A DNA stretch of 64,000 nucleotides. Source: an uncultured Candidatus Saccharibacteria bacterium. Lineage in GTDB: Bacteria > Patescibacteriota > Minisyncoccia > Phycocordibacterales > CAYSCM01. Shown piece after piece: positions 4,210-64,000 of this stretch (positions are counted from its first letter, which is position 1; every line of letters starts with the position of its first letter). Below the pieces are notes generated by a model. That model saw nothing but the letters and a program-made list of their open reading frames with translations. It was not told the origin of the DNA and made no database searches. Made by a program: the position numbers and the translations under genes. The DNA lies in assembly GCA_964429815.1 (NCBI GenBank), contig CAYSCM010000001.1:256001-320000 (forward strand). Direction: 5' to 3'.

Positions 4210-4212
4210 CGG

Positions 4213-4250
4213 ACGGGCGCGACCCTTGGTCGCGCCCTCTTTCTTTTTTA
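4213..4250 (+). terminator. rho-independent terminator
   Basis: GGGCGCGAC-cctt-GGTCGCGCCC hairpin followed by tctttctttttt. Confidence 0.65.
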
Positions 4251-4267
4251 TATATAGTAGTGCCGCT

Positions 4268-23590: not shown

Positions 23591-24592
23591 TTGAGGTCGC
23601 AACTCGCTCATACGTATGACGATATCATCTCGCTAGAAAATCTCCTTGCCGCATGGCAGGAATTCGTGCGCGGGAAGCGCAAAAAATGCGACGTGCAAGA
23701 GTTTCAGTTTCGGCTCGTGGACAATATTCTTGAGCTCTACCGTGACTTGAAAGAGAAAACATACACGCATGGGCCGTACCACCCTTTTAAAATAAGCGAC
23801 CCTAAACCCCGCGACATCCACAAGGCGAGCGTACGCGACCGGCTCCTCCACCACGCAATATATCGGAAACTCTATCCATTCTTCGACAAAATTTTCATTG
23901 CCGATTCGTACTCATGCAGGAAAGGCAAAGGAACACACAAGGCGATGAACCGTTTTCGTTCCTTTGCATACAAGGCGAGCTTAAATCACACAAAAACGCT
24001 TTGGGTGCTCAAGTGCGACATCAAAAAGTTCTTTGCATCAGTCGATCAGCATGTTCTCCTGGAGATTATTAGGCGCTGCATTTCTGACACCGACATCCTC
24101 TGGCTCATCGAGCGAGTCGTGCAGAGTTTCAATCCCAGCAGGGAGGGCACGGGTCTCCCGCTCGGCAATCTCACCTCGCAGCTTTTAGTGAATGTGTATA
24201 TGAACGAGTTTGACCAGTTTGTGAAGCGCACCCTCAAAGCGAAATACTACATCCGTTACGCCGATGATTTTGTGATTTTCTCGCAAGATGCGAAATGGCT
24301 CCAACAAATATGCAAATATATCAGCATATTCTTACGTGAACGGCTGAAACTCGAATTGCACCCTAATAAAGTATCGATCACAACGCTCGCATCCGGTATC
24401 GATTTTCTCGGCTGGGTGAATTTTCCTGATCATCGCGTGCTACGCACCTCGACAAAGCGGCGGATGTTGAAGCGAATGACTGGTGAGCAATCTAAAGAGA
24501 TCATCAAACCGTATTTAGGGCTTCTTCAACATGGGAACAGCAAAAAGCTGCAATTGAAAATCTTGTTTGACACAGCAGAGGCAATCAAGTAA
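23591..24592 (+). CDS. DGR-type reverse transcriptase
   Basis: 333 aa; [20 protein letters not shown] (DGR [ILV]GxxxSQ in place of group II QGxxxSP), [14 protein letters not shown] box. Confidence 0.9.
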
Positions 24593-38812: not shown

Positions 38813-38813
38813 G

Positions 38814-39183
38814 TGGAGATGGGCGGAATCGAACCGCCGTGCAAAATAGGGTAAACGCGTTTCTACACTATCTAGTCTGCTCTCAATTCTCGAAGTTATG
38901 CGTTAAGAGCAAACAAAATCGCATACCTTCCAGTCTCGTAGTTTAGACGCGCTCGTGAGACACCAAATGCGTCGAGTCCGGAAATATTACACCCAAGAGT
39001 GCCTAACAGACTTCAACAAGCTGGATGGGATTAGGCCGTCGCGTAAGCGAAGGAGAAATCCTTTGCCGAAAAATACGGCGAAGTAACTGATTTTGCAGTT
39101 ATTTTTTCAGGATTTTAAGGAAGGTCCTGACTTCCACAGTGCACGTTAGTTTACGGATTATTTTGTCTAGGCCGATCATCCCC
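38814..39183 (-). ncRNA. ssrA: tmRNA (transfer-messenger RNA)
   Basis: 5' GGGGATG / 3' CATCTCC-A acceptor with G3-U70 wobble, T-arm GGCGGTTCGATTCCGCC, internal tag ORF GCA AAG GAT TTC TCC TTC GCT TAC GCG ACG GCC TAA (AKDFSFAYATA*); adjacent smpB. Confidence 0.75.
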
Positions 39184-51431: not shown

Positions 51432-52061
51432 CTAATGCGCCAGTGCGATGAGGACGACTTCGCGCGCTCCGGGAAGCCGGAGCGCGCGTTTTGCTTCCGA
51501 GAGCGTAGCACCGGTGGTCATGACGTCGTCGACGACGATAAGAAGGCCCTCCGGCAAGGCTCCGGTCAGAGCGAAAGTCCCTTCAACATTCTGAAGCCTC
51601 CCCTGCCGGGAGAGCGAAGTCTGGGGCGCTGTGTCGCGCATCTTTTTTAAAAGTCCCGCGACACGGGCCTCGCCGAGCCTTCGTGCCGCAACGGCGAGAA
51701 CAAGCTCGACCTGGTTAAAACCCCGCGCACGCAGGCGCTCTTGCGAGAGCGGAGAGGGGATGAGAACGAGCGGGCGCTCGAGCACGCCCTCGTCTTCCAC
51801 AAACGACAGCAGGGCCTCGGCGAGTGCGCTTCCGAGAATCTCCGCACTGCGCCTATCCCTTCTGTACTTAAGCTCTCGTATGAGCGCGCAGACAAGGGGA
51901 TCTTTGTAGGAGGAGAGGACATGTATACCGTCGACAACGGTGCCGAAGGAGAATTTCGAAAGCGCTTCTGCGTCGCTTGTCGCGGCGATGAGCGCGGCTT
52001 CTCTGCGTTGCGGCAAGAGGAGGTTGAGAAGTTCCAAAAGCGCACGGCGAACTTTCTCCAT
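51432..52061 (-). CDS. comFC: ComF family phosphoribosyltransferase-domain competence protein
   Basis: C-terminal PRTase motif LIVVDDVMTTGATL. Confidence 0.75.
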   Translation of the reverse strand: MEKVRRALLELLNLLLPQRREAALIAATSDAEALSKFSFGTVVDGIHVLSSYKDPLVCALIRELKYRRDRRSAEILGSALAEALLSFVEDEGVLERPLVLIPSPLSQERLRARGFNQVELVLAVAARRLGEARVAGLLKKMRDTAPQTSLSRQGRLQNVEGTFALTGALPEGLLIVVDDVMTTGATLSEAKRALRLPGAREVVLIALAH

Positions 52062-52115
52062 GACCTTAATCTAGCCACGCTAACGTTGTGGGCGCAACGG
52101 GGTATACTACAAGGA

Positions 52116-53252
52116 ATGGTACGTTTAGGTGCTTCACTTTCTTCGCTTTTTGGCGGTGTGTTTTCGCAAAAACCCGCCGAAAGCGTCGTGGGCGTCGACA
52201 TAGGCTCTTCTTCTATAAAGGTCGTACAGTTGCGGCGTAAGTCCGGCGTTCCCGTCCTTGAGACGTACGGCGAGCTCGCGCTCGGCCCTTACGGCGGAGT
52301 CGAGATCGGTCGCGCCACGAATCTAGGGCCCGACGTCATAGCCAAAGCGCTCAATGATGTTGTGCGCGAGGCCAATGTCACCGCAACCTCCGGCGGCTTC
52401 TCCATCCCCTTCAGCGCCTCACTCATTTCACTCATCGAGCTTCCGCAGGTGCCTCCCGGTCAGCTCGCCCAGATGATCCCGCTCGAGGCGCGCAAGTACA
52501 TCCCCGTCTCAATCGGCGAGGTGACGCTCGACTGGTTCGTCATACCCAAAGAAGAAGCGCGCTACCTGTCCCTTTCGGAAGATAAGGAAAAGGCGCCGGA
52601 AGCGTCCAAAATAAACGTGCTCCTTGTCGCTATCCACAATGACACGCTCAGCAAGTACCGCGACATCATAAAACAGACCAAGCTTACACCAGGATTTTTC
52701 GAGATAGAGATCTTCAGCGCCGCTCGCGCTTCACTCGAGCAAGGCATTGCACCGGTCATGGTCCTCGACCTCGGGGCTGCGACCACGAAGCTCTACATCG
52801 TCGAGTACGGCATCGTGCGTGCCTCCCACAACATCAACCGCGGCGGGCAGGACGTGACGCTCGCACTTTCCCGCACCCTCGGCGTTTCCGTCCAAAAAGC
52901 GGAGGAGATGAAGCGCGAACTCGGGCTCCTGCCGGGGCAAAACGGCACGGGGGTATCGGAGACGGCGCTCCTCTCCCTCGAATACATTTTTTCGGAAGCC
53001 AATCGTGTGCTTCTCTCCTATGAGCGGCGTTTCAATAAAAACGTCAGCAAGGTGGCCCTCGTCGGCGGCGGAGCCATTATGAAGGGACTTCTTGAGGTCT
53101 CGAAAAAACATTTCCAGACGGACGTTGTGCTCGGGAACCCTTTTGCGAAAGTCGAGGCTCCAGCGTTCCTGGAGCATGTTTTGCGACAGGCCGGGCCGGA
53201 ATTTTCCGTCGCGACGGGACTTGCCCTTCGAAAGCTCTCCGAGCAGGGATAA
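52116..53252 (+). CDS. pilM: type IV pilus assembly protein PilM
   Basis: actin-like ATPase fold, VGVDIGSSSIKVVQL; TATACT 7 nt upstream. Confidence 0.8.
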   Translation: MVRLGASLSSLFGGVFSQKPAESVVGVDIGSSSIKVVQLRRKSGVPVLETYGELALGPYGGVEIGRATNLGPDVIAKALNDVVREANVTATSGGFSIPFSASLISLIELPQVPPGQLAQMIPLEARKYIPVSIGEVTLDWFVIPKEEARYLSLSEDKEKAPEASKINVLLVAIHNDTLSKYRDIIKQTKLTPGFFEIEIFSAARASLEQGIAPVMVLDLGAATTKLYIVEYGIVRASHNINRGGQDVTLALSRTLGVSVQKAEEMKRELGLLPGQNGTGVSETALLSLEYIFSEANRVLLSYERRFNKNVSKVALVGGGAIMKGLLEVSKKHFQTDVVLGNPFAKVEAPAFLEHVLRQAGPEFSVATGLALRKLSEQG

Positions 53253-53297
53253 CTTGCTTGGAAGAGAATGTGAGCGTCGCCTATACTATAGAGTGAA

Positions 53298-53945
53298 ATG
53301 GAACCGAAGTTCCGTACATCTTTCATTCCAAAGCAGCCCATCGTGGCCGTCCCGGCGAAATCAACGCGTCGTGGCGGCGGGCTTCTCTTTCTCGTCGCGC
53401 TCATAATTTTTCTTGCTGCAGTCACCCTCGCCGGCGCGGTATTTCTCTACCAGCAGTACCTCAAGCAGGCGATAAGCTCCAATAAAGCTTCCCTTGAACG
53501 CGCACGGGCCGCGTTCGAGCCGGCGCTCATCCAGGAACTTGAGCGGCTCGACAGCCGCATAACGGTCGCCGGGCAGCTTCTCGGGAAACATACCGCTCCG
53601 GCAGAGCTTCTCACCTTCCTCGCCGACAACACGCTCCAGGACGTGCGCTTTACCGACTTCAATTACACCGCATCTGCGGACAAGATATCGCTCACCATGA
53701 AAGGGGAAGCCAAAAGTTTCGCCGCGGTCGTCCTACAATCGGATGCATTCGCTAAAACCCACGATCTCCACGAGCCTATTTTCTCCAATCTCAATCTCGA
53801 CGATAGGGGGAATGTCCAGTTCGACTTCGCCGCGTACGTAGAACCCGGCCTCGTTTCCTACGCCGCGTCTCTCGATCGAGGGCTCGGCGCAGCCGGTACG
53901 CAGCAGGGGACGAATGGTTCACAGCACGCCACCTCAACACCATGA
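53298..53945 (+). CDS. pilN: PilN-like pilus assembly protein
   Basis: N-terminal TM then coiled coil, position after pilM. Confidence 0.5.
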   Translation: MEPKFRTSFIPKQPIVAVPAKSTRRGGGLLFLVALIIFLAAVTLAGAVFLYQQYLKQAISSNKASLERARAAFEPALIQELERLDSRITVAGQLLGKHTAPAELLTFLADNTLQDVRFTDFNYTASADKISLTMKGEAKSFAAVVLQSDAFAKTHDLHEPIFSNLNLDDRGNVQFDFAAYVEPGLVSYAASLDRGLGAAGTQQGTNGSQHATSTP

Positions 53946-54484
53946 TAAAGTTCCTTATTCCCATCATCTTCGTTGGCACCGCAGCCGGGCTCTTCTTCGG
54001 CTACATCGACCCCACATACTCGAGCGTGAAAGGGCTTAAGGGGGAGAACCAGCAGTACTCCGATGCGCTCGATAAGGCCAAAGAGCTCCAGGCAGTGCGC
54101 GATCGCCTCCTCTCCAAGTACAACACCTTCCAGGGCTCCGACCTCGACCGTCTCCAGAAGCTCCTGCCGGATGCCATCGACAACGTGCGTCTCATCCTCG
54201 ACCTCGATAACATGGCAAGCCGCTACGCAATGCGCACTCGCAACGTCACCGTAAGTAACGAAAGCGCTCCCGCGCAAGGAACCGTTGGGCCGGACGTAAA
54301 CCGTTTCGGCACGGCGACCATCACCTTCTCGGTCATCGGCTCTTATGAAAATTTCCTTGCTTACTTGCGTGACCTTGAGACAAGCCTGCGACTCGTCGAT
54401 ATCACGACTGTTGTCTTTCAGGTCAACCAGGGAAGCGACCTCAACACCTACACCATTACCGTGAAGACCTATTGGCTCAAGTAA
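53942..54484 (+). CDS. pilO: PilO-like pilus assembly protein
   Basis: N-terminal TM, coiled coil, operon position. Confidence 0.5.
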   Translation: MIKFLIPIIFVGTAAGLFFGYIDPTYSSVKGLKGENQQYSDALDKAKELQAVRDRLLSKYNTFQGSDLDRLQKLLPDAIDNVRLILDLDNMASRYAMRTRNVTVSNESAPAQGTVGPDVNRFGTATITFSVIGSYENFLAYLRDLETSLRLVDITTVVFQVNQGSDLNTYTITVKTYWLK

Positions 54485-54486
54485 CC

Positions 54487-54825
54487 ATGAACTTTTTCGC
54501 AAAATACAAGAACATAACCGTCACCGTCGTTATCGCGATCCTTCTCTACCTCGGCTATTCTTATTTCTTCGGTGGCGTGAGCGCTCCGTCGAACATCGTC
54601 ACGGAGACCGCGAACCCGGCGCAGAGCGAAGTCGGCGGAGACCTTCTTCAGACGCTTCTCACACTGCGCTCGCTTACCCTCAACGAGGGGATTTTCACCG
54701 ACAAGGTGTTCGTCTCGCTCAGAGATTTCAGCCAGCCCATCACACCACTGCCTGTCGGCCGCAAGAACCCCTTCGCTCCGTTCACCGCCGCAGCGACGAA
54801 CCAAAAAGCGGGAACGACGCGCTAG
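54487..54825 (+). CDS. hypothetical pilus-operon membrane protein (PilP-like position)
   Basis: N-terminal TM; between pilO and pilB. Confidence 0.35.
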   Translation: MNFFAKYKNITVTVVIAILLYLGYSYFFGGVSAPSNIVTETANPAQSEVGGDLLQTLLTLRSLTLNEGIFTDKVFVSLRDFSQPITPLPVGRKNPFAPFTAAATNQKAGTTR

Positions 54826-54867
54826 TGCGCGGGAGGGCACAAGCGCGAGTTCGGCGTCAGGAGGACC

Positions 54868-56643
54868 ATGGAAAAACTACTTGAACTTTTAGTCGACAAG
54901 GGAGTTCTCAGCGCTTCCGATGCCGCTGCAATAAGCTCGCAAGCCACCGCCGAAGAGGGGGCCGAAGAGCAGCTTCAAAAGCGCGGCGTGAGCGCCGAAG
55001 ACATCCTTACCACAAAGAGCGATTACTACAAAGTTCCCTGGAAGACACTTGGCGACGAGACGGTCGCCATCGAGACCCTGCGCTATATTCCCGAAGAGTC
55101 GGCGGCGCACTACCGCTTCGTGCCGCTCGCACAGCGCGACGGGGTCCTTGAGGTTGGTATCCTCGACCCGGACAATATCGAAGCGCTCGATGCCCTTAAT
55201 TTCATAAGTTCGAAAATGGGTGTGCCCTACAAGGTGTTCCTCATCACCGAAGAGGATTTCAAAAAAGTCATTGGCATGTACAAGGGCCTCTCCTCCGAAG
55301 TGGGGAAGGCGCTATCCGAGCTCGGCGGGGAGCTTGGAGAGGCTGACGACCTTGAGACTCAGCTCTCGGAGGTGAAGGGGAAACTCAAAGAGGACGAAGA
55401 GCACATCAAGGAAGATGCCCCGGTCACGAAGATGGTCGCCACCATCATCCGCTATGCGGTCGAAGGGCGTGCTTCGGACATACACATCGAACCCACCGCC
55501 ACGAATGTGCGCGTGCGTTTCCGCGTCGACGGCGATCTCTACACGTCGCTCACTCTTCCCGCTGCCGTACAGAAAGCCATCGTCGCGCGCATCAAAATAC
55601 TCTCCCTCATCAAGCTCGATGAGAAGCGGAAGCCGCAGGACGGTCGTTTTTCGGCCATGGTCGACAACCGGCGCATCGATTTCCGCGTTTCGACTTTTCC
55701 CACCTCCTACGGTGAAAAGGTCGTGATGCGCATCCTTGACCGCGACAAGGGAGCCATCAAGCTCACCGACCTCGGGATGGAAGAGGAGCAGCTTGCGGCG
55801 GTCCGCGACATGATAAAGCACCCCTACGGCATCATTCTTCTCTCGGGCCCGACCGGCTCCGGTAAGTCGACAAGCCTCTACGCGATGCTCAACGAGATGG
55901 ACCGCGAAAAGAAAAACGTCGTCTCGCTCGAGGACCCGGTCGAGTATGACATCCAGGGCGTCGCGCAGTCTCAGGTCCGCCCGGAGATAGGCTATACGTT
56001 CGCTTCGGGGCTCCGTTCTATACTGCGCCAAGACCCGAACGTCATCATGGTCGGCGAGATCCGTGACAAGGAAACGGCCCAGCTTGCGGTGCAAGCGGCC
56101 CTCACCGGACACCTCGTCCTCTCGACCATCCACACCAACACGGCTGTCGGCGCAATACCGCGCCTCATCGATCTTGGCGTCGATCCGTTTCTCATCGCGC
56201 CGACCTTGATCGGCGTCATCGCCCAACGTCTCGTCCGTGTGCTCTGTAAGGGAAGCGGCAAGAAAATGCCGGTCGAAGGGAGCATCAAAATAATGCTCGA
56301 GAAACAGTTCGCTGATCTACCCGCCAAGTACCGCAGCCAGATCCCAACCGGAAAGTCCGTCTACGGTCTCGATCCGACGCCAGAGTGCCCCTCGGGGACC
56401 CGCGGGCGCACGGGGGTGTTCGAATTCCTCACCATGGATGCGGCGATCGAATCGATCATCCTCAAGCATCCGGTCGAGGAGGAGATCTGGACCATTGCGC
56501 GCGGTCGAGGCATGTTCACCATGAAGGAAGACGCGATCAAGAAAGCGATGAAAGGAGAGATACCGTTCGAGGAAATAAATACCCTCGGCGGGGCGCTCCT
56601 CACCGACGAAGAAGCGCCGCAAGGGGAAGAGGCGAAGTCATAG
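54868..56643 (+). CDS. pilB: type IV pilus assembly ATPase PilB (GspE family)
   Basis: N-terminal GSPII_E_N domain, Walker A GPTGSGKST, Asp/His boxes. Confidence 0.9.
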   Translation: MEKLLELLVDKGVLSASDAAAISSQATAEEGAEEQLQKRGVSAEDILTTKSDYYKVPWKTLGDETVAIETLRYIPEESAAHYRFVPLAQRDGVLEVGILDPDNIEALDALNFISSKMGVPYKVFLITEEDFKKVIGMYKGLSSEVGKALSELGGELGEADDLETQLSEVKGKLKEDEEHIKEDAPVTKMVATIIRYAVEGRASDIHIEPTATNVRVRFRVDGDLYTSLTLPAAVQKAIVARIKILSLIKLDEKRKPQDGRFSAMVDNRRIDFRVSTFPTSYGEKVVMRILDRDKGAIKLTDLGMEEEQLAAVRDMIKHPYGIILLSGPTGSGKSTSLYAMLNEMDREKKNVVSLEDPVEYDIQGVAQSQVRPEIGYTFASGLRSILRQDPNVIMVGEIRDKETAQLAVQAALTGHLVLSTIHTNTAVGAIPRLIDLGVDPFLIAPTLIGVIAQRLVRVLCKGSGKKMPVEGSIKIMLEKQFADLPAKYRSQIPTGKSVYGLDPTPECPSGTRGRTGVFEFLTMDAAIESIILKHPVEEEIWTIARGRGMFTMKEDAIKKAMKGEIPFEEINTLGGALLTDEEAPQGEEAKS

Positions 56644-56694
56644 TCTGTTGAAAAGCGGCGCGGATAGGCTCATGAGGGCGGTATACTGAGGGGC

Positions 56695-57081
56695 ATGGCA
56701 CTCCAGAGCAAATCGATCCTCATCGTCGACGATGACCGGTTTCTCATCGATATGTACTCGCTGAAGTTCAAAGAAGAAGGGTTCACGGTCTCCTCGGCGC
56801 AGGGCGGGGAAGAAGCCATCAGCAAGCTCTCGACTGAAGCTCCGGACGTCGTACTCCTCGATCTCATCATGCCGGGCGTCGACGGCCTCGAAGTGTTGCG
56901 GACCGTTCGGGAAAAGAATCTTGCGAAAGACACCACGTTCATCGTGCTTAGCAACCAAAGCCAAACCGACGACATAGCGCGCGCCAAGGAGCTCGGCGCC
57001 AATCACTACATCGTCAAGGCGAGCGCCGTACCCTCCGAAGTGGTCGCTGAGGTGCGCAAAAAATTAGCACAAACGTCATAA
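56695..57081 (+). CDS. single-domain response regulator (CheY-like receiver)
   Basis: ILIVDDD...D(57)-equivalent LLDLIMPGVDG, K box. Confidence 0.8.
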   Translation: MALQSKSILIVDDDRFLIDMYSLKFKEEGFTVSSAQGGEEAISKLSTEAPDVVLLDLIMPGVDGLEVLRTVREKNLAKDTTFIVLSNQSQTDDIARAKELGANHYIVKASAVPSEVVAEVRKKLAQTS

Positions 57082-57085
57082 TCGT

Positions 57086-58147
57086 ATGGACTATAAAAAA
57101 GAGCTCGTCGAACTTATCGAGACCGTCATAGCGGAGGGCGCTTCCGACCTCCACTTCACCGCCGGTCGACAGCCGACCATCCGCGTTTCCGGCTCGCTTC
57201 TTCCCCTTATCAAAAAACAGACGCTAACACCCGCCGATACCCTCGGCTTCCTCACCGAGCTCTTGCGGCCGGAGAAGAAAAAAGAATTCCTCGACACCCA
57301 GGAGATCGACTTCTCCTACGCCTTTAAGGACAAAGGACGTTTCCGCGGCAACGCTTTTTTCCAGCAGGGCACCATCGCGGTAGCGCTGCGCCTCATTCCT
57401 CGTGACATCCGGCCTCTCTCCGAGCTCAACTTGCCGCCCATTCTCGGAGAATTTACCAAGCGCGAACAAGGTTTCTTCCTGCTCGTGGGTCCCGTCGGGC
57501 AGGGAAAGTCGACCACCCTTGCGGCGCTCCTTGAGATGATCAACCAGGAGCGCTCTGAGCATATCGTGACCATCGAGGACCCGATCGAGTACCTTTTTCA
57601 GCCGAAAAAATCCCTCGTCGAGCAGCGCGAGGTGCGCATCGACACCAAGGATTTCCACATCGCGCTTAGGCAGGTATTCCGTCAGGACGTCGACGTCATT
57701 ATGATCGGCGAGATGCGATCGCCGGAGACCATATCGACCGCGGTCACCGCCGCGGAGACTGGCCACCTCGTCTTCTCGACGCTCCACACCAACAACGCCG
57801 CCCAGACCATCGACCGCATTATCGACTCGTTCCCCTCCGGACAGCAGGAGCAGATCCGCATCCAGCTTGCCGGCTCGCTTGCGGGTATTTTCTCGCAGCG
57901 CCTCATCCCGCGCATCTCCGGGGGGCTTGTGCCGGCCTATGAGCTTCTCATCAATAACGCTGCAGTCGCCAACCTCATCCGTGAAAAGCGCTCCCACGAG
58001 ATAAACACCGTCATCGAAACGGGCGCCGACCAAGGCATGATCGACATGAATCGCTCCCTTGCGGAGCTGGTCCGGCGGGGCGAAATTACGGTGGAAAACG
58101 CCTTCATGCGCTCCCTTAATCCCAAGGTTCTGGAGCGCCTCGTCTAG
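57086..58147 (+). CDS. pilT: twitching motility ATPase PilT
   Basis: GPVGQGKSTT Walker A, PilT family length and motifs. Confidence 0.9.
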   Translation: MDYKKELVELIETVIAEGASDLHFTAGRQPTIRVSGSLLPLIKKQTLTPADTLGFLTELLRPEKKKEFLDTQEIDFSYAFKDKGRFRGNAFFQQGTIAVALRLIPRDIRPLSELNLPPILGEFTKREQGFFLLVGPVGQGKSTTLAALLEMINQERSEHIVTIEDPIEYLFQPKKSLVEQREVRIDTKDFHIALRQVFRQDVDVIMIGEMRSPETISTAVTAAETGHLVFSTLHTNNAAQTIDRIIDSFPSGQQEQIRIQLAGSLAGIFSQRLIPRISGGLVPAYELLINNAAVANLIREKRSHEINTVIETGADQGMIDMNRSLAELVRRGEITVENAFMRSLNPKVLERLV

Positions 58148-58149
58148 CC

Positions 58150-59358
58150 ATGCTTTTCTCCTATAAAGCCATCGACGAAACAGGTGCCGCACGTGAGGGT
58201 ACCATCGATGCGGTCTCGCAGGACGCCGCGATAGCGGCCTTGCAGCGGCGAAATCTGGTCTTGACCTCCATTGGTGAAGCCGGAAAAGGCGGCGGACTCT
58301 CGCTCAATCTCGCTATTTTTGAGAGGGTTAAGTCGAAGGATATTGTCTTTCTCTCGCGCCAGATCTCGACCCTCTTCGAGGCTCAGGTCTCAGCGCTTCG
58401 TGTCTTCCGCCTCCTTGCCGCGGAATCGCCAAGCCCGGTGCTCGGTAAAAAATTGGCCGACGTCTCCGACGAGCTCCAGGGGGGAAGTTCCATCAGCAAG
58501 GCTTTGAGCAAGCACCCCGAGGTCTTTTCCGATTTTTACGTCAACATGGTGCGTGCGGGGGAAGAGTCGGGAAAACTCGACGAGATTTTCCGTTACCTTG
58601 CCGACTACCTCGACCGCTCCTACGAGGTGACCTCGAAGGTGCGCAATGCCCTTATCTATCCGGCGTTCGTCATCGTAACCTTCGTCGTCGTCATGATACT
58701 CATGCTCACCCTCGTCATCCCGAAGCTCTCCGTCATTCTCCTCGAGGCGGGGCAAAAAGTCCCCATCTATACGCGCATCATAATCGGGCTTTCGCAATTT
58801 TTCGTGAACTACGGCGTCTTTCTTTTCATCCTCGCCGGCATCGGCGGCGTCTTCGCCTGGCGCTTCGCGCGCACGAACAACGGGAGCTACTATTTCGATT
58901 CCCTTAAAATAAACATCCCCTACGTCGGAGACCTCTATCGCAAGCTCTACCTCTCTCGCGTGGCGGACAATCTATCCACCATGCTCCAGAGCGGCATCCC
59001 CATGGTGCGCGCTGTCGAGATATCTGCCTCCGTAGTCGGCAATTCTGTCTACCAGAAGGTGCTCCTCGAGACGCTCGAGAGCATCAAGGGCGGTATCTCG
59101 CTCTCCGATACCCTGGCGCGCTACCCTGCGGAGATCCCGGGCATTCTCGTCCAGATGACGCGGGTAGGCGAGGAGTCCGGCGAGCTCGGCTCTATCCTCA
59201 AGACCCTGGCCAAGTTCTACCAACGCGAGGTAAGCAATGCCGTCGACACCTTGGTGGGGCTTATCGAACCGGTCATGATAGTGGCGCTCGGCCTTGGCGT
59301 CGGCATCCTTCTCGCGGCAGTACTCCTACCCATCTACAACATCGCAAGCGCGGTGTAG
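58150..59358 (+). CDS. pilC: type IV pilus platform protein PilC (GspF family)
   Basis: two GspF repeats, 3 TM. Confidence 0.9.
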   Translation: MLFSYKAIDETGAAREGTIDAVSQDAAIAALQRRNLVLTSIGEAGKGGGLSLNLAIFERVKSKDIVFLSRQISTLFEAQVSALRVFRLLAAESPSPVLGKKLADVSDELQGGSSISKALSKHPEVFSDFYVNMVRAGEESGKLDEIFRYLADYLDRSYEVTSKVRNALIYPAFVIVTFVVVMILMLTLVIPKLSVILLEAGQKVPIYTRIIIGLSQFFVNYGVFLFILAGIGGVFAWRFARTNNGSYYFDSLKINIPYVGDLYRKLYLSRVADNLSTMLQSGIPMVRAVEISASVVGNSVYQKVLLETLESIKGGISLSDTLARYPAEIPGILVQMTRVGEESGELGSILKTLAKFYQREVSNAVDTLVGLIEPVMIVALGLGVGILLAAVLLPIYNIASAV

Positions 59359-59482: not shown

Positions 59483-59977
59483 ATGTTTACAAGAACTACT
59501 ACATCCAAAGGCTTCACCCTCATCGAGCTCCTCGTGGTCATCGCCATCATCGGCATACTCTCCTCGGTCGTCCTTGCTTCGCTTTCGACCGCTCGTGCCA
59601 AGAGCCGTGATGCAGCACGTGTCGCATCGCTCAAGGAAATGGCGAAATCCATTGCGCTTGCGGACGCAGACCCCGCTCCTGCACTTACGACCTGCACGGC
59701 AGCCGGCGCCAAGGCGAACACCTGCAATGGTCCCTCACCGGTCAACTTCGCAAGCTACTGCGACCCAACAGCCGGTTGTGGCGGCACAGCGTGTACGACG
59801 ACCAATGGCTCGGCTTGTCAGTATGCGATAGGCAAGGCAACCCTCGCAACGGCCAACCCAACCACCCAAAGTTGGGAGATCTGTATCTTCCTCGAAACCG
59901 GCGCAGGTTCGCTGAGTTCGGGTATGGTCCATTCCGGCTCCGATACCGGCGGCGGCGTCGTAGCGACCTGCAACTAG
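59483..59977 (+). CDS. type IV pilin (copy 1)
   Basis: KGFTLIELLVVIAIIGIL prepilin N-terminal methylation motif; Cys-rich C-terminal region. Confidence 0.85.
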   Translation: MFTRTTTSKGFTLIELLVVIAIIGILSSVVLASLSTARAKSRDAARVASLKEMAKSIALADADPAPALTTCTAAGAKANTCNGPSPVNFASYCDPTAGCGGTACTTTNGSACQYAIGKATLATANPTTQSWEICIFLETGAGSLSSGMVHSGSDTGGGVVATCN

Positions 59978-60051
59978 CCTCTATTTCTCACGAAATATCG
60001 AAATCCCCAGCGGTCGCTGGGGATTTCGCTTTATAGCGCTATACTTTTCCT

Positions 60052-60543
60052 ATGAGAAAACCCTATCGCCGCGGCTTCACCCTCATCGAGCTCCTCGTGG
60101 TCATCGCCATCATCGGCATACTCTCCTCGGTCGTCCTTGCTTCGCTTTCGACCGCTCGTGCCAAGAGCCGTGATGCAGCACGTGTCGCATCGCTCAAGGA
60201 AATGGCGAAATCCATTGCGCTTGCGGACGCAGACCCCGCTCCTGCACTTACGACCTGCACGGCAGCCGGCGCCAAGGCGAACACCTGCAATGGTCCCTCA
60301 CCGGTCAACTTCGCAAGCTACTGCGACCCAACAGCCGGTTGTGGCGGCACAGCGTGTACGACGACCAATGGCTCGGCTTGTCAGTATGCGATAGGACTCT
60401 CCTCGGCAATTGGGACCGGTGGCGCGACCACGCAGAATTACCAAATATGTACGTGGCTTGAGACCGGGGCCGGCTCACTTACACAGGGTCCGGTGAGCGT
60501 GCGAAGCGACACAGGAGGTGGCGTCGTGCAAAATTGCATCTAA
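60052..60543 (+). CDS. type IV pilin (copy 2); 5' ~350 nt identical to copy 1, divergent 3' end
   Basis: first ~118 aa identical to copy 1; ORF track shows identical antisense ORFs 59574..59831 and 60137..60394. Confidence 0.85.
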   Translation: MRKPYRRGFTLIELLVVIAIIGILSSVVLASLSTARAKSRDAARVASLKEMAKSIALADADPAPALTTCTAAGAKANTCNGPSPVNFASYCDPTAGCGGTACTTTNGSACQYAIGLSSAIGTGGATTQNYQICTWLETGAGSLTQGPVSVRSDTGGGVVQNCI

Positions 60544-60593
60544 ATCCCCAAGTTCTTGGAATTTGTTGTCGGGAGTGGATATATACTTAGTGT

Positions 60594-61103
60594 ATGAAAG
60601 AGTGCATGAAAGAGAAGCGCGGCTTCACCCTCATCGAGCTCCTCGTGGTCATCGCCATCATCGGCATACTCTCCTCGGTCGTCCTTGCTTCGCTCCAAAC
60701 TGCGCGCGCCAAGAGCCGTGACGCTAAGCGCATATCCGACCTGCGCCAGGTACAACTTGCGCTCGAGCTCTACTATGACGTCAATCGGGCATATCCATCG
60801 GCCATCACGACGGCGACCCTCGTGACCCCCGGCTACATCCCTTCGATACCCACGGACCCGACGACAGGCGTTTCGTATAAGTATTCGGTGCGCAATGCCA
60901 CCTGCACCAGCTATCACCTCGGCGCGGACCTCGAACAGACGAGCAATATCGCGCTCAACAACGACTCCGACGCAACGGCCGTCGCCGCAACGAGCGCCAC
61001 GTGCCCCGACGCATCCGTGACGACGAGCGACTTCAGTGGTGGATTCCCGACATGCTCTGCGACCTCGGGTACTCCTGACGGTTGTTATGATCTAACGCCG
61101 TAG
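60594..61103 (+). CDS. type IV pilin (copy 3); shares only the prepilin N-terminus with copies 1/2
   Basis: RGFTLIELLVVIAIIGILSSVVLASL then divergent. Confidence 0.85.
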   Translation: MKECMKEKRGFTLIELLVVIAIIGILSSVVLASLQTARAKSRDAKRISDLRQVQLALELYYDVNRAYPSAITTATLVTPGYIPSIPTDPTTGVSYKYSVRNATCTSYHLGADLEQTSNIALNNDSDATAVAATSATCPDASVTTSDFSGGFPTCSATSGTPDGCYDLTP

Positions 61104-61169: not shown

Positions 61170-61946
61170 ATGGCTCTTATCGGTATTGGCGCGTTCATGC
61201 TCGGAACCATCATCGGCAGTTTCCTTAACGTCGTCGTCCTCCGGCTTGGCTCGGGGCGCTCCGTGACGGGGCGCAGCGCCTGCCTTTCCTGTGGGACGAC
61301 GCTTGAAGCCGTCGATCTCGTTCCTATCCTCTCCTATCTTTTTCTTCGCGGCCGGTGCCGTCGCTGCGGGAGTCGCATGTCAGCCCAGTACCCGCTCGTC
61401 GAGCTTGCGACCGGCATATTGTTTCTCCTCGTCGCACTCCTCCCTTTTTCGCCCTATGAGATGATCTATCTTGCTATCCTCGTGTCCCTTCTTGTCGCCA
61501 TTGCCGCCTATGACATCAGGCACAAAATAGTACCCGATGTGCTCGTCTATCCGTTTATCGCACTTGCCCTCCTCCATGCCGCATTCGCCGCGTTCATCTT
61601 CATTCCCGCCACACCCTTTGCTCTCTATGTAGTCTCCGGATTTTCCTTCGCGCTACCCCTTGTCCTTATCTGGTATCTTTCTCATGGCCGCGCGATGGGG
61701 CTAGGTGACGGGAAGCTCGCGCTCGGACTGGGCTTCATGCTCGGTCCCATCGGGACCATCTCGGCATTCGTCTTTTCATTTTGGAGCGGCGCGCTTGTTG
61801 GGGTTGCGCTCATCGCTATTCAGCGCGTTGCTTTGCGGGCGAGGGGCAAGGCTCTTACAATGAAAAGCGAGATTCCCTTCGCCCCCTTCCTCATCTTCGG
61901 GGCGATGCTCGTAAAGCTCCTGGGAGTCGAGCTGCCGCTTTTTTAA
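61170..61946 (+). CDS. pilD: prepilin peptidase (A24 family)
   Basis: N-terminal CxxC..CxxC zinc motif and DUF/peptidase A24 TM core. Confidence 0.85.
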   Translation: MALIGIGAFMLGTIIGSFLNVVVLRLGSGRSVTGRSACLSCGTTLEAVDLVPILSYLFLRGRCRRCGSRMSAQYPLVELATGILFLLVALLPFSPYEMIYLAILVSLLVAIAAYDIRHKIVPDVLVYPFIALALLHAAFAAFIFIPATPFALYVVSGFSFALPLVLIWYLSHGRAMGLGDGKLALGLGFMLGPIGTISAFVFSFWSGALVGVALIAIQRVALRARGKALTMKSEIPFAPFLIFGAMLVKLLGVELPLF

Positions 61947-61956
61947 TCCCTACTCC

Positions 61957-62697
61957 ATGCACCCTAGAGACGACCACGCTCGATACCCTAAGGGCTTTAC
62001 GCTCGTGGAACTTCTCGTTACGGTCTCTATTCTCGTCGTCATCACTGCTATCATACTCGTGAGCCAAAACCGCTTTGGCGGTCAAATAACTCTCACGAAC
62101 CTTGCATACTCCCTGGCACTTTCCATTCGGCAAGCTCAAACGTACGGACTCGCTGTACGTGAGGTGAACTCCGGAAGCGGAAACTTCTCCGCTGCGTTCG
62201 GCGTCCACTTCGACCCCGCGACGCCGTCCCAGTACATCATCTTCGCGGATCTCGACGGCAACGGTCGCTACACAGACTCAAGCGAGAACTATTCGTTCAT
62301 CAGGATAACGAGCGGCGGCAAGATATCTTCCGTGTGCGGCGTGCTCGCCAATGCCACCAACAAGTGCAACCCCGACATTTCAACCCTCGATATCGTCTTC
62401 AAGCGCCCCAATCCCGACGCGCTCATCAAGAGTAATGTCCTCACCGACACCTATGGCGGCGCCAAAATAGTCCTCACCTCGCCGCAAGGGGATACCCGCT
62501 ACGTCTATGTTGCCGCGACCGGTCAGATCTCGGTCCAGCAGGCCGCCACGACGCTCTATACGCAGGCCTCCTACTATGCGCAGGGGTACTACCAGTCCTC
62601 CTACTACAGCCAGAGCTACTACCAGAGCACTTACTACAGCCAGGGCTACTACCAGAGTTACTACGAGAGTTCCTATCAACCCGGTTATGCATTCTAA
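61957..62697 (+). CDS. pseudopilin/minor pilin with C-terminal Tyr/Ser/Gln-rich repeat ending GYAF
   Basis: KGFTLVELLV prepilin motif; C-terminus ASYYAQGYYQSSYYSQSYYQSTYYSQGYYQSYYESSYQPGYAF. Confidence 0.75.
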   Translation: MHPRDDHARYPKGFTLVELLVTVSILVVITAIILVSQNRFGGQITLTNLAYSLALSIRQAQTYGLAVREVNSGSGNFSAAFGVHFDPATPSQYIIFADLDGNGRYTDSSENYSFIRITSGGKISSVCGVLANATNKCNPDISTLDIVFKRPNPDALIKSNVLTDTYGGAKIVLTSPQGDTRYVYVAATGQISVQQAATTLYTQASYYAQGYYQSSYYSQSYYQSTYYSQGYYQSYYESSYQPGYAF

Positions 62698-62710
62698 GTA
62701 TTTCGCGACA

Positions 62711-63292
62711 ATGAAGAGGGACGAAAAGCTTCGCGACGGCGGCTTCACGCTCATCGAGATCCTTGTCGCCATCACCATTTTTGCAATCGTCATGATGATC
62801 GCGGTCGCAGCACTTCTTGCTCTCGTCGACGGCTCTCGAAAAGCGCAAGCGCTCGAGTCGGTCATGAACAACCTCAACTTTGCGCTCGAGAACATGACGC
62901 GCTCCATCCGCGTTGGGACGCTCTATCACTGTCAGACGACGAACACCCCCTCATCAAACCTTCAGACCCCTCAAGACTGCACGACCGGTGGCGTACTCCT
63001 CGCGTTCGAAGGGGCAACGGGGGATACAACCACGAACAGCGACCAGATCATTTACCGCCTTAATGGGGCTCAGCTTGAGCGCAGTACCGATGGCGGTGGC
63101 ACCTTCATTGCCATTACGGCTCCTGAAGTCAATATCCAAAGTTTTGCATTTTACGTGAGCGGCACCACACGGGGGGACGGACAGCAGCCCAGAGTCCTCA
63201 TGACCATACGCGGCATTGCCGGCGTCTCCCCGAAGGTACAAACTCCTTTCTATCTGGAGTCCATGGCTTCCCAGCGCCTTCTCGACCTTTAA
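62711..63292 (+). CDS. pseudopilin (GspH/FimT-like)
   Basis: GGFTLIEILVAITIFAIVMM prepilin motif. Confidence 0.7.
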   Translation: MKRDEKLRDGGFTLIEILVAITIFAIVMMIAVAALLALVDGSRKAQALESVMNNLNFALENMTRSIRVGTLYHCQTTNTPSSNLQTPQDCTTGGVLLAFEGATGDTTTNSDQIIYRLNGAQLERSTDGGGTFIAITAPEVNIQSFAFYVSGTTRGDGQQPRVLMTIRGIAGVSPKVQTPFYLESMASQRLLDL

Positions 63293-63293
63293 T

Positions 63294-63911
63294 ATGGCCT
63301 CTTTCCAGAGAAAAACCGGATTTACCCTCATTGAGACGCTTGTCGCCATCTCAGTCCTTCTCGTGTCGATCGCGGGACCGCTCACCATCGCTTCTAAGAG
63401 CCTCACCTCCGCCCTTTTCGCCCGCGATCAGGTAACCTCTTTCTACCTCGCGCAAGAGGGCATCGAATTCGTCCGTAATTGGCGCGACAACAATGCGCTC
63501 GCGAGTGCGGCTTGGCTCACGGGGCTTAGCAACTGCATCTCACCGAATGTCTGTTCGGTCGATCCGAAAAATAACCTCATCGTTGCCTGCGCCGGAGGTG
63601 TGTGTCCCGCGCTCAAGTACGACAGTGCTTCCGGTTTTTACAACACTCAAACTGGTGCCAACTCTATATTTACCCGCACTATTAAGTTAACCCAGATAAC
63701 CGCCGATGAGTACGCGATTTCATCAAAAATTTCGTGGACCTCGGGGCTTTTTCCCAAGACCTTTCAGGTACGCGATAACATTTACAATTGGGCGGGCACC
63801 GCCGTCTACGCGCAAGGAGCCTACTACAGCCAAGGCACCTACTATAGCCAGGGCACTTACTACAGCCAGGGCTACTACCAGAGTACCTATCAGTCAGGGT
63901 ACGCGTTCTAA
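63294..63911 (+). CDS. pseudopilin with C-terminal YYSQG repeats ending GYAF
   Basis: TGFTLIETLVAISVLLV prepilin motif; C-terminus AQGAYYSQGTYYSQGTYYSQGYYQSTYQSGYAF. Confidence 0.75.
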   Translation: MASFQRKTGFTLIETLVAISVLLVSIAGPLTIASKSLTSALFARDQVTSFYLAQEGIEFVRNWRDNNALASAAWLTGLSNCISPNVCSVDPKNNLIVACAGGVCPALKYDSASGFYNTQTGANSIFTRTIKLTQITADEYAISSKISWTSGLFPKTFQVRDNIYNWAGTAVYAQGAYYSQGTYYSQGTYYSQGYYQSTYQSGYAF

Positions 63912-63917
63912 AATACC

Positions 63918-64000
63918 ATGTCTCGCTCCTCAGACGGATTCACTCTCTTGCTCGCAGTCCTCATCAGCAGCGTCCTTCTGACGCTTGGACTCGCTATCTT
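63918..64000 (+). CDS. pseudopilin, 5' partial (runs off window)
   Basis: DGFTLLLAVLISSVLL prepilin motif. Confidence 0.5.
   Translation, partial: MSRSSDGFTLLLAVLISSVLLTLGLAI

What the first reader, a model, noticed from the sequence alone, without database searches (positions are those of the whole stretch)
61957..63911. Pseudopilins with Tyr-rich C-terminal repeats ending in GYAF
Two prepilin-type proteins end in low-complexity tails built from (S/Q)YYSQGYYQS-like units. Both terminate ...YQPGYAF-COOH or ...YQSGYAF-COOH. One is ASYYAQGYYQSSYYSQSYYQSTYYSQGYYQSYYESSYQPGYAF. The other is AQGAYYSQGTYYSQGTYYSQGYYQSTYQSGYAF. The tails are also near-identical at nucleotide level (62560-62697 vs 63820-63911). 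A conserved C-terminal Tyr-repeat motif on minor pilins is not a standard feature of type IV pili. It could mediate adhesion (Tyr-rich adhesives), cross-linking or a sorting function.
Basis: seen in the sequence. Interest (0 to 1): 0.5.

Follow-up and report, generated by a model that had tools for sequence, protein, structure and literature searches.

The report
Tyrosine-rich tails on pilus-tip pilins
Two of the four small proteins that cap the type IV pilus of an ultra-small (Patescibacteria) bacterium end in floppy tails made of a YYSQG-like repeat. The same repeat occurs in dozens of other surface proteins of such bacteria, so it is probably a reusable sticky module rather than noise, but its function has not been tested.

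Summary
The two pilins are MP1 (61957-62697, 246 aa) and MP3 (63285-63911, 208 aa). Both are prepilin-type minor pilins in a complete type IV pilus operon, and they end ...YQPGYAF and ...YQSGYAF after Tyr/Ser/Gln/Gly repeats. The claim of near-identity at the nucleotide level is overstated: the longest identical run is 32 nt, and 18 of 36 aligned codons are identical.

The tails are still not noise. Tyr-repeat tails arose in at least three separate MP1 clades. In one distant operon (L086) the same YYSQG repeat sits on MP1, on MP3 and in the MP4 region. A back-translated YSQGxYYSQG scan found 45 metagenomic ORFs with the same composition. Most are signal-peptide or surface proteins, and some lie next to pilus genes. 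No Pfam or NCBIfam model and no paper covers the repeat.

Best reading: these are modular tip pilins carrying an undescribed disordered adhesive or cohesive module. That function is inferred. Novelty: new variant of a known kind.

The parts
61957..62697 (+). MP1: GspH/FimU/FimT-type minor pilin, 246 aa, class III signal peptide ...YPKG|FTLVE
62542..62694 (+). MP1 C-terminal tail (aa 196-246). The Tyr repeat proper is aa 205-246, built of three 10-residue units (S/T)YYSQ(G/S)YYQS followed by YYESSYQPGYAF.
   Evidence: The last predicted beta-strand ends at aa 195, and 10-residue block means of pLDDT are 41-54 from aa 201. TRF finds 30 bp x 3.1. Composition is Y 38%, S 24%, Q 17%, G 7%.
62711..63292 (+). 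MP2: minor pilin, 193 aa, weakly GspJ/PilW-like at the N-terminus, no tail
   Evidence: TIGR01711 gspJ E 1.9e-6 over aa 10-71, far below its cut-off.
63285..63911 (+). MP3: minor pilin, 208 aa from the ATG, signal ...RKTG|FTLIE. PilV/GspI-like by position and weak N-terminal hits only.
   Evidence: AlphaFold2 model with pLDDT above 90 for aa 21-170. The family normally ends at ...ENIFDW(Q/L), which corresponds to IYNW at aa 166-169 here.
63792..63908 (+). MP3 C-terminal tail (aa 170-208): three 6-residue units xYYSQG, then YYQSTYQSGYAF
   Evidence: 10-residue block means of pLDDT are 48-59 from aa 171. TRF finds 18 bp x 2.9. Composition is Y 32%, Q 18%, G 15%, S 15%.
63919..64000 (+). MP4 (start only, runs off the window): MSRSSDG|FTLLLAVLISSVLL..., Leu instead of Glu at +5, as in GspK/PilX-type tip pilins
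   Evidence: Read from the sequence. Homologous to the fourth minor pilin of L002 and L003. Whether it carries a Tyr run cannot be seen.
61170..61946 (+). PilD prepilin peptidase/N-methyltransferase
   Evidence: Pfam A24_N_bact 103.8 bits and Peptidase_A24 47.2 bits.
59483..61103 (+). Three major-type pilin genes (59483-59977, 60052-60543, 60594-61103)
   Evidence: N_methyl and GspG-like hits. The first two share a 323-nt identical run.
51741..59358 (+). Pilus machinery: PilM (51741-53252), an unassigned ORF (53298-53945), PilO (53942-54484), PilB (54868-56643), a response regulator (56695-57081), PilT-like ATPase (57086-58147) and PilC-like platform protein (58150-59358)
   Evidence: Pfam hits for PilM, PilO, PilB and the response regulator. 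PilT and PilC are assigned by synteny with the T2SSE and T2SSF genes of L002 and L003.

Best explanation
MP1 and MP3 are two of the four core minor pilins (H-, J-, I- and K-like) that prime and then cap a retractile type IV pilus of a Patescibacteria (Paceibacteria/Parcubacteria-type) bacterium. Each is a modular pilin: a complete pilin fold followed by a 40-50-residue, uncharged, intrinsically disordered tail built of (S/T)YYSQG / YYQS units. That unit belongs to a wider, undescribed Tyr/Ser/Gly/Gln repeat module used in many secreted or surface-anchored proteins of these bacteria.

Proposed mechanism:
1. PilD cleaves the prepilins at G|F.
2. The four minor pilins form the priming complex and are pushed out at the pilus tip by PilB.
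3. The free tails, up to about 14-16 nm if extended, act as multivalent, low-specificity sticky tentacles. Tyr rings and hydroxyls, helped by Gln and Ser, make many weak contacts with host-envelope glycans or proteins, or with other copies of the same module.
4. PilT retraction then pulls the cell onto its target.

Origin: the tail-coding segment was copied between the two genes. Each copy was then remodelled by slippage (a 30-bp unit in one, an 18-bp unit in the other) while the peptide was kept.

What is shown: pilin identity, the operon, the GspH/FimU fold of MP1, low-confidence tails, recurrence of the module, and its association with exported proteins. What is inferred: tip location (from the known roles of the GspH/I/J/K and FimU-PilVWX families), disorder, and the adhesive or cohesive function.
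For: - Identity. Prepilin motifs are present. The operon runs PilM-O, PilB, PilT, PilC, three pilins, PilD and four minor pilins, and is syntenic in L002, L003 and L086.
- Fold. The MP1 model matches EpsH, FimU, GspH and FimT. In FimT the C-terminal tail is solvent-exposed on the pilus and binds the ligand (PMC8897410).
- Tails are add-ons. Family members end at TGQISVxx (MP1) or ENIFDWQ/L (MP3). Tail block-mean pLDDT is 41-59 against above 90 for the folds.
- MP1's C-terminus is a grafting hotspot. 7 of 118 homologues carry 25 or more extra residues: three Tyr repeats, three longer extensions of 90-211 residues and one G/E/P-rich tail. This fits the modular-pilin principle (PMC8179133) and the host-binding accessory domains on Saccharibacteria minor pilins (PMC11623550).
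- Recurrence. Tyr-repeat tails occur in three MP1 clades whose nearest relatives lack them.
- L086. This operon carries YYSQG runs on MP1, on MP3 and in the MP4 region, identical across 4-5 samples.
- Major-type pilin. L135 carries the repeat as well.
- Wider module. 45 metagenomic ORFs have the same composition (Y 33%, S 16%, G 15%, Q 13%). Most start with a hydrophobic signal or anchor segment. Identifiable or adhesin-like domains in some of them include CARDB (P0121), weak fn3/Ig hits (L111) and an LPXTG-like C-terminal anchor (L100, L112).
- Genomic neighbours. Some of these ORFs lie next to PilB or pilin genes.
- Free ends. On the pilins nothing follows the tail, so it cannot be a mere spacer there.
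- Selection on the peptide. 10 of the 28 aligned same-residue codons differ synonymously, including 4 synonymous differences in the last 6 codons Q-x-G-Y-A-F.
Against: - No experiment or structure bears on binding.
- Most orthologues, including the closest (64% and 59% identity), have no tail, so it is dispensable for pilus function.
- The tails are tandem DNA repeats that slippage can create and expand without selection.
- Low pLDDT may partly reflect the lack of aligned homologues over the tail.
- The tails of the L002/L003 clade are strongly acidic ((E)(S/G)(S/G)Y), so a single common ligand is unlikely.
- In that clade only MP1 has a tail.
- The conserved GYAF end is not explained by a generic sticky-tail model.
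- The tip location of MP1-MP4 is by analogy only, and the class of MP3 is not established.
Confidence: 0.5

Rival explanations
1. Neutral low-complexity expansion. Replication slippage created and copied a Tyr-codon-rich tandem repeat at the 3' ends of two neighbouring genes. The tails are tolerated because pilin C-termini are exposed, and they do nothing.
For: Tandem 30-bp and 18-bp DNA repeats. Absent from 117 of 120 and 119 of 120 homologues and from 79 of the 80 GTDB species-representative loci scanned. Unit number and length differ between tails. A 32-nt identical run suggests recent copying.
Against: The same four-residue composition in the same reading frame recurs in three MP1 clades, on several tip pilins of L086 and in 45 exported proteins. 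Ten synonymous differences coexist with a conserved peptide, and the GYAF end is kept despite 4 synonymous changes. The L086 tails are identical in 4-5 samples.
Confidence: 0.2
2. Substrate for post-translational chemistry. The Tyr and Ser residues are oxidised (DOPA or dityrosine cross-links), O-glycosylated, or sulfated or phosphorylated, giving a covalently cross-linking or glycan-decorated pilus tip.
For: Composition is 32-38% Tyr plus 15-24% Ser. In 10 other loci YYSQG proteins sit beside a conserved cluster of Cys/His-rich membrane proteins and one to three cupredoxin-like proteins (PF13473, 28.2 bits against a cut-off of 27). Pilin O-glycosylation is predicted in Saccharibacteria (PMC11623550).
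Against: No tyrosinase, laccase, peroxidase, glycosyltransferase or oligosaccharyltransferase was found among the roughly 40 largest ORFs of the 64-kb window. The cupredoxin cluster was not seen in the window. The link between that cluster and Tyr chemistry is pure conjecture.
Confidence: 0.1
3. DNA-capture tail. MP1 has the FimT/FimU fold, and FimT binds DNA through its flexible C-terminal tail. The Tyr tails would capture DNA for ComEC-dependent uptake.
Against: The tails contain no Arg or Lys at all, whereas FimT binding is electrostatic through arginines. The analogous tails in L002 and L003 are strongly acidic. The same repeat is common in non-pilin surface proteins.
Confidence: 0.04
4. 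C-terminal sorting or recognition signal. ...(P/S)GYAF-COOH is read by a sorting, anchoring or assembly factor, in the manner of an outer-membrane beta-signal or a CTERM sorting tag.
For: GYAF is identical in both tails despite 4 synonymous differences in the last 6 codons. Both tails end in a terminal aromatic residue.
Against: No other Tyr tail ends in GYAF. Other endings are ...SYKSK...SQGGY...GEQN...GNQN...YYAK and ...GHY. No hydrophobic or charged segment typical of sorting tags is present. Pilins are sorted by their N-terminal class III signal. Tail-less orthologues assemble the same operon.
Confidence: 0.03

Closest known systems
Modular type IV pilins (Streptococcus sanguinis PilB with a vWA module and PilC with a lectin module; more than 1,200 InterPro examples; Raynaud et al. 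2021, PMC8179133)
   Same: An N-terminal pilin module carries an extra C-terminal module presented by the filament, probably at the tip, to add a binding function. CPR examples are known.
   Different: Here the module is a short, low-complexity, probably disordered repeat with no domain signature. It sits on two different core minor pilins at once and is shared with non-pilin surface proteins.
GspH/FimU/FimT family minor pilins, especially Legionella FimT with its flexible DNA-binding C-terminal tail (PMC8897410; PDB 7qyi, 4ipu, 4dq9, 2knq)
   Different: The FimT tail is 13 residues long, Arg-rich and partly ordered. The MP1 tail is about 50 residues long, has no charge apart from one Glu, and is 38% Tyr.
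Saccharibacteria minor pilins PilX1 and PilX2 with lectin-like C-terminal domains needed for host binding (PMC11623550)
   Same: Patescibacteria type IV pilus minor pilins whose C-terminal add-ons mediate episymbiont-host attachment.
   Different: Those add-ons are folded beta-jelly-roll or beta-propeller domains on PilX-type pilins, not repeats on H- and I-like pilins.
Eukaryotic SYGQ-rich prion-like low-complexity domains (FUS/EWS/TAF15 family) and LARKS segments (comparison from my own knowledge)
   Same: Nearly the same four-residue alphabet (S, Y, G and Q make up 78-86% of the residues), predicted disorder and regularly spaced Tyr. This suggests reversible self-association through Tyr.
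   Different: There is no homology. Those domains are intracellular and eukaryotic. Tyr occurs here as YY doublets in strict 4-, 6- or 10-residue units rather than as [G/S]Y[G/S] triplets. Phase separation or cross-beta formation is untested.
Tyr-based adhesive or cross-linked structural proteins (mussel foot proteins with DOPA, resilin and spore-coat dityrosine) and the Tyr-rich motif in the Acinetobacter ComC tip adhesin (PMC10374093)
   Same: Tyr-rich extracellular sequences used for adhesion or cross-linking. ComC shows a Tyr-rich element on a pilus tip protein.
   Different: No oxidising enzyme is identified here. The ComC motif lies in a folded finger of a PilY1-type vWA adhesin and is not a repeat tail.

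Membership tests
Type IV pilin / prepilin (class III signal peptide) | Short basic leader, Gly at -1, Phe or Met at +1, Glu at +5, then a hydrophobic alpha1-N helix of about 20 residues | tested here: met
   MP1 has ...PKG|FTLVELLVTVSILVV and MP3 has ...KTG|FTLIETLVAISVLL. Pfam PF07963 scores 27.6 and 24.2 bits against a cut-off of 21.2. TIGR02532 scores 26.2 and 19.9 bits against 16.3. The models show a long N-terminal helix followed by a beta-sheet.
Type IV pilin / prepilin (class III signal peptide) | Encoded with a dedicated prepilin peptidase and an assembly ATPase and platform protein | tested here: met
   PilD lies immediately upstream (61170-61946). PilB, PilT, PilC, PilM and PilO are in the same strand block.
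GspH/FimU/FimT minor pilin family (MP1) | Globular head with two antiparallel beta-sheets superposable on EpsH, GspH or FimU | tested here: met
GspI/PilV minor pilin family (MP3) | Small head with the GspI/PilV fold; sequence match above the family cut-off | tested here: inconclusive
   Only sub-threshold N-terminal hits were found (TIGR02523 PilV E 0.0028). Foldseek against the PDB gave nothing significant, and the profile search against PDB sequences matched the N-terminal helix only. The assignment rests on gene order.
Modular pilin (sensu Raynaud et al. 2021) | A pilin module followed by an additional module that is not part of the pilin fold | tested here: met
   Both folds are complete at aa 195 (MP1) and aa 169 (MP3), which is where homologues end. 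The extra 40-50 residues recur as an independent module in non-pilin proteins.
Modular pilin (sensu Raynaud et al. 2021) | The extra module is a recognisable functional domain with a direct role in a pilus function | tested here: not met
   No Pfam or NCBIfam signature covers the tail. The tail has low pLDDT and no confident secondary structure. Its function cannot be tested with these tools.
FUS-like SYGQ prion-like low-complexity domain | Composition dominated by S, Y, G and Q with predicted disorder | tested here: met
   Y+S+Q+G make up 86% of tail 1, 79% of tail 3 and 78% of the 45 metagenomic segments. Tail block-mean pLDDT is 41-59.
FUS-like SYGQ prion-like low-complexity domain | [G/S]Y[G/S] triplet spacing; self-association, phase separation or hydrogel formation | not testable with these tools
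   By inspection, Tyr occurs mainly as YY doublets ((S/T)YYSQG, YYQS), so the triplet rule is largely not followed. Self-association needs an experiment.
C-terminal sorting signal (beta-signal or CTERM tag type) | A terminal motif conserved across many exported proteins or orthologues, with a cognate sorting enzyme | tested here: not met
   GYAF occurs only on the two paralogous tails of this genome. It is absent from all other Tyr tails and from the 240 listed homologues. No sortase-like or exosortase-like gene was seen in the window.

The most novel reading that the evidence does not exclude
The YYSQG-type repeat is a previously undescribed extracellular cohesion module of Patescibacteria. 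It would be a bacterial, secreted counterpart of SYGQ/LARKS low-complexity domains that self-associates through Tyr. On this reading the module is displayed both on pilus tips (MP1, MP3, and the MP4 region in L086) and on cell-surface proteins. Pili would then dock homotypically, like Velcro, onto module-bearing surfaces of kin cells or of their own envelope. Alternatively the tails would be oxidatively cross-linked by the co-occurring Cys/His-rich and cupredoxin gene cluster. The lineage-specific GYAF end would be a capping or recognition element.
Probability: 0.12. Interest if true: 0.8.

Novelty: new variant of a known kind. Interest (0 to 1): 0.45.

Why it matters
Patescibacteria are a large and mostly uncultured part of bacterial diversity. 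They live attached to host cells, and type IV pili are among the few surface organelles nearly universal in the group. In the one lineage tested (Saccharibacteria), minor pilins with accessory domains contribute to host binding.

A disordered, Tyr-packed repeat shared by pilus-tip pilins and many other exported proteins would be a new, database-invisible class of adhesion or cohesion module. It would also extend the modular-pilin idea from folded domains to low-complexity sequence. The idea can be tested with synthetic peptides and in the Patescibacteria that can now be manipulated genetically.

The repeat also offers a practical search handle (the YSQGxYYSQG back-translation) for finding surface proteins in these genomes, where most such genes have no annotation.

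Tried and rejected
1. A word-indexed homologue search with the tail alone found no candidate, apparently because no candidate shared three 5-residue words with the query. This cost one of the three searches.
2. phmmer of the tail against 1.84 billion representatives returned only the query's own protein and P0121. Composition filters probably hide other cases, so I switched to a back-translated DNA pattern.
3. I could not see the rest of MP4 or the rest of the genome. P0001 is not on record in the contig index. MP2 led only to a 1.25-kb Logan contig. The source genome is not among the GTDB species representatives.
5. Profile searches against PDB sequences matched only the N-terminal helix.
6. 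The viral contig scan gave one chance hit, a 26-aa frame.
7. Searches for the repeat strings and for 'tyrosine-rich' combined with pilin, Patescibacteria or CPR found nothing relevant. The exception was a Tyr-rich motif in Acinetobacter ComC, which is a different thing.
8. No modifying enzyme was found within the 64 kb.
9. A sorting-signal role for GYAF was rejected because the motif is not seen elsewhere.
10. A DNA-binding role was rejected because the tails have no basic residues and related tails are acidic.
11. An assembly artefact was rejected. The flanks of both tail copies are unique, and an independent assembly matches the window exactly.
Full report
**1. What is in the window**

The region 51.7-64 kb is one strand-consistent type IV pilus operon. 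The genes in order are:
- PilM (51741-53252)
- an unassigned 215-aa ORF (53298-53945)
- PilO (53942-54484)
- PilB (54868-56643)
- a response regulator (56695-57081)
- a PilT-like ATPase (57086-58147)
- a PilC-like platform protein (58150-59358)
- three major-type pilins (59483, 60052, 60594)
- the prepilin peptidase PilD (61170-61946)
- four minor pilins: MP1 (61957-62697), MP2 (62711-63292), MP3 (63285-63911) and MP4 (from 63919, cut by the window end)

This rests. The same gene order, ending in four minor pilins followed by DNA ligase, is found in related loci L002, L003 and L086. MP4 has Leu instead of Glu at +5, as in GspK/PilX-type tip pilins. With PilT present and no secretin seen in the window, these are minor pilins of a retractile type IV pilus, not type II secretion pseudopilins.

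The rest of the window holds ComEC, a ribosomal-protein operon, SecY, FtsH, RecG and a tmRNA. That gene content is mostly housekeeping. The homologues are almost all from Patescibacteria of the Paceibacteria/Parcubacteria type, such as Kaiserbacteria, Nomurabacteria and Campbellbacteria.

**2. The observation**

They are far beyond chance. The Tyr background is 2.5%, and the binomial P values are 2e-15 and 3e-10. They are the only such frames in the 64 kb.

At the DNA level the tails are tandem repeats. Tail 1 has a 30-bp unit x 3.1, coding three copies of (S/T)YYSQ(G/S)YYQS. Tail 3 has an 18-bp unit x 2.9, coding xYYSQG.

The nucleotide claim is overstated. The two tails share one 32-nt identical run (62627-62658 = 63853-63884) but are otherwise diverged. 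Of 36 aligned codons, 18 are identical, 10 differ synonymously and 8 change the residue. The last six codons, Q-(P/S)-G-Y-A-F, carry four synonymous differences with the peptide unchanged. That pattern fits selection on the peptide better than very recent copying. The sample is small, however, and alignment inside repeats is ambiguous.

An independent Logan assembly (L001) is 100% identical to window 62629-63882. It breaks at both ends inside the shared run, which is what a genuine two-copy repeat does to a short-read assembler.

**3. The carrier proteins**

AlphaFold2 with family alignments gives confident pilin folds: mean pLDDT 83 and 86, with the bodies above 90. In 10-residue blocks, pLDDT drops to means of 41-54 from residue 201 of MP1 and to 48-59 from residue 171 of MP3. 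Neither tail has confident secondary structure.

The class of MP3 (PilV/GspI-like) rests only on gene order and sub-threshold N-terminal hits.

**4. Are the tails conserved?**

They are not conserved in orthologues.
- Of the 120 best MP1 homologues (356 in all), nearly all are 185-215 aa and end ...TGQISVxx. The closest two (64% and 59% identity) have no tail.
- Of the 120 best MP3 homologues (313 in all), 119 end at the conserved ...ENIFDW(Q/L).
- Among 80 GTDB species-representative loci, only one carries a Tyr tail.
- The GYAF end was seen nowhere else.

**5. The feature nevertheless recurs independently**

(a) P0015 and P0078, which are sister sequences in loci L002 and L003, carry 60-70-residue acidic tails of (E/Q/N)(S/G)(S/G)Y units on MP1 only.

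(b) L086 is a distant operon. Its MP1 is 41% identical to the window's, and its nearest relatives P0053 and P0054 have no tails. Its MP1 ends ...TYSQAGYYSQSGYYAEGTYYSQGGYYSEGYYYSEGYYYGQGYYYSQGSYKSK. Its MP3 (P0221) ends ...TYSQSGYYSQGGY. The MP4 region contains an internal YYYSQG run. The MP1 tail is identical in contigs from five samples (L086-L090), and the exact MP3 protein is on nine contigs.

(c) The window lineage is the third case.

Nearest-neighbour analysis shows that these are three separate clades whose closest relatives lack tails. The MP1 C-terminus is more generally a grafting site: 7 of 118 homologues have 25 or more extra residues. Three are Tyr repeats, three are longer extensions of 90-211 residues, and one is G/E/P-rich.

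**6. The repeat is not pilin-specific**

phmmer of tail 1 against 1.84 billion representatives found only the query's own protein and P0121. P0121 is KND48240.1, named 'putative cell adhesion protein' from Parcubacteria bacterium C7867-004. In it, YYSQGYYQ repeats link a Cys-rich N-terminal part to a CARDB domain.

A metagenome scan with back-translated YSQGxYYSQG returned 65 loci. I estimate the pattern at about 37 bits, and about 20 hits were chance or AT-rich DNA repeats. The remaining 45 ORFs contain true Tyr segments of 20-300 residues. Their pooled composition is Y 33%, S 16%, G 15% and Q 13%. The window tails match this at Y 32-38%, S 15-24%, Q 17-18% and G 7-15%. Several of the 45 are near-duplicates, so there are roughly 35 distinct proteins.

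ORFs with an intact N-terminus almost always begin with a signal or anchor helix. The repeat lies just after that helix in 15 ORFs, is internal or unplaceable in 18, and is within 30 residues of the stop in 12. The flanking sequence is Cys-rich or, by eye, beta-rich and Ig-like in many. The only domain hits were CARDB (P0121) and weak fn3/Ig hits (L111), and two proteins (L100, L112) end in an LPXTG-like anchor.

One of the 45 (L135, Hainich groundwater) is a major-type pilin with a C-terminal YYSQG run. Three loci (L092, L094, L119) have a Patescibacteria-type PilB gene next to the repeat protein, and L139 has a pilin beside it.

No Pfam or NCBIfam model covers the repeat. No paper in the searchable library mentions it.

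**7. Interpretation**

The tails are best read as a low-complexity, probably disordered module of the Patescibacteria exoproteome, grafted onto two tip-complex pilins. This is a new flavour of modular pilin (PMC8179133). In Saccharibacteria, a minor pilin with a C-terminal lectin-like domain (PilX2) is needed for efficient host binding (PMC11623550).

On the pilins nothing follows the tail, so it cannot be a spacer there. Whatever it does, it does itself. A multivalent, Tyr-based, low-specificity adhesive or cohesive role is the most economical reading (confidence about 0.5). The alphabet is that of SYGQ prion-like domains, which suggests self-association. That parallel comes from my own knowledge and was not tested.

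The rivals are:
- neutral slippage (0.2)
- a substrate for Tyr or Ser modification or cross-linking (0.1)
- DNA capture in the manner of FimT (0.04; the tails have no basic residues, and related tails are acidic)
- a GYAF sorting signal (0.03; the motif is not seen elsewhere)

No modifying enzyme was found among the largest ORFs of the window.

**8. Verdict**

The feature is unusual on pilins and plausibly adhesive. However, the conserved element is the YYSQG-type repeat module, not GYAF, and the module is neither restricted to pilins nor conserved among orthologues.

I rate it a new variant of a known kind, a modular tip pilin carrying an undescribed low-complexity module. Interest is moderate at 0.45. 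The recurrence pattern is suggestive and the module appears to be undescribed, but function is entirely inferred and low-complexity tails are an intrinsically soft target.

Noticed in passing
L086:1703-4514 (Logan SRR30813775 contig 41345; also L087-L091): A distant Patescibacteria pilus operon carries YYSQG runs on MP1 and MP3. Its fourth minor pilin is split by a +1 frame change into a 91-aa N-terminal piece (3755-4030) and a 159-aa ORF (4035-4514). The second ORF starts with a signal-peptide-like segment, then a run of YYYSQG repeats, then the C-terminal half of MP4. The split is called the same way in every contig that reaches this region.
   Followed up: partly
L085:119-7020 (Parcubacteria bacterium C7867-004, LFCN01000002); homologous clusters in L099, L104, L114, L119, L121, L123, L131, L132, L147, L148: YYSQG-repeat proteins often sit beside a conserved cluster with almost no annotation. 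It holds three or four paralogous membrane-anchored Cys/His-rich proteins (CYHG...GHG motifs, no Pfam hit), one to three small proteins with a transmembrane segment and a cupredoxin-like domain (PF13473, just above its cut-off), and a PD40-like beta-propeller protein. A link to copper or to Tyr chemistry is only a guess.
   Followed up: partly
L002:5835-6638 (P0015) and L003:6001-6786 (P0078): A sister pair of MP1 homologues carries a different, strongly acidic Tyr-periodic tail, (E/Q/N)(S/G)(S/G)Y repeated about 15 times and ending in a G/D-rich stretch and ...QN. In these operons MP3 has no tail.
   Followed up: partly
L092-L156, e.g. L094, L130, L137, L139, L153 (ends ...P.FEEF, ...FLEI, ...VTEF); L098, L129, L132, L133, L140, L145 (ends ...(K/R)(W/F)(R/K)EV.P or ...WQEVAP); L100 and L112 (ends ...QVPYTGFEAGP, a hydrophobic helix, then KKK): Many of the repeat-bearing surface proteins end in a few recurrent C-terminal motifs. 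One looks like an LPXTG-type sortase signal (VPYTG followed by a transmembrane segment and a basic tail). These may be sorting or anchoring signals of Patescibacteria surface proteins.
   Followed up: no
window 59483-59977 and 60052-60543: Two adjacent major-type pilin genes share a 323-nt identical run (59510-59832 = 60073-60395) covering most of the N-terminal two-thirds of the genes. They then diverge in the C-terminal third. This indicates a recent duplication or gene conversion with a variable C-terminal region.
   Followed up: partly
window 23591-24592 (+): An ORF with a reverse-transcriptase domain (RVT_1, 92 bits) lies inside or next to the ribosomal-protein gene block. No group II intron RNA reached the Rfam gathering score.
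   Followed up: no
window 38813-39183 (-): A tmRNA with an unusual predicted tag peptide, AKSVTSPYFSAKDFSFAYATA.
   Followed up: no
window 1053-2558 (+): A ComEC (Competence plus DUF4131) gene lies in the same 64 kb as the pilus operon. This is consistent with pilus-dependent DNA uptake in this organism.
   Followed up: no
L135:3419-4189 (-) (Hainich groundwater contig ERZ1292625.17025): A major-type (GspG-like) pilin carries a C-terminal YYSQG run of about 70 residues followed by an acidic G/D-rich end. The module is therefore also grafted onto non-tip pilins.
   Followed up: partly
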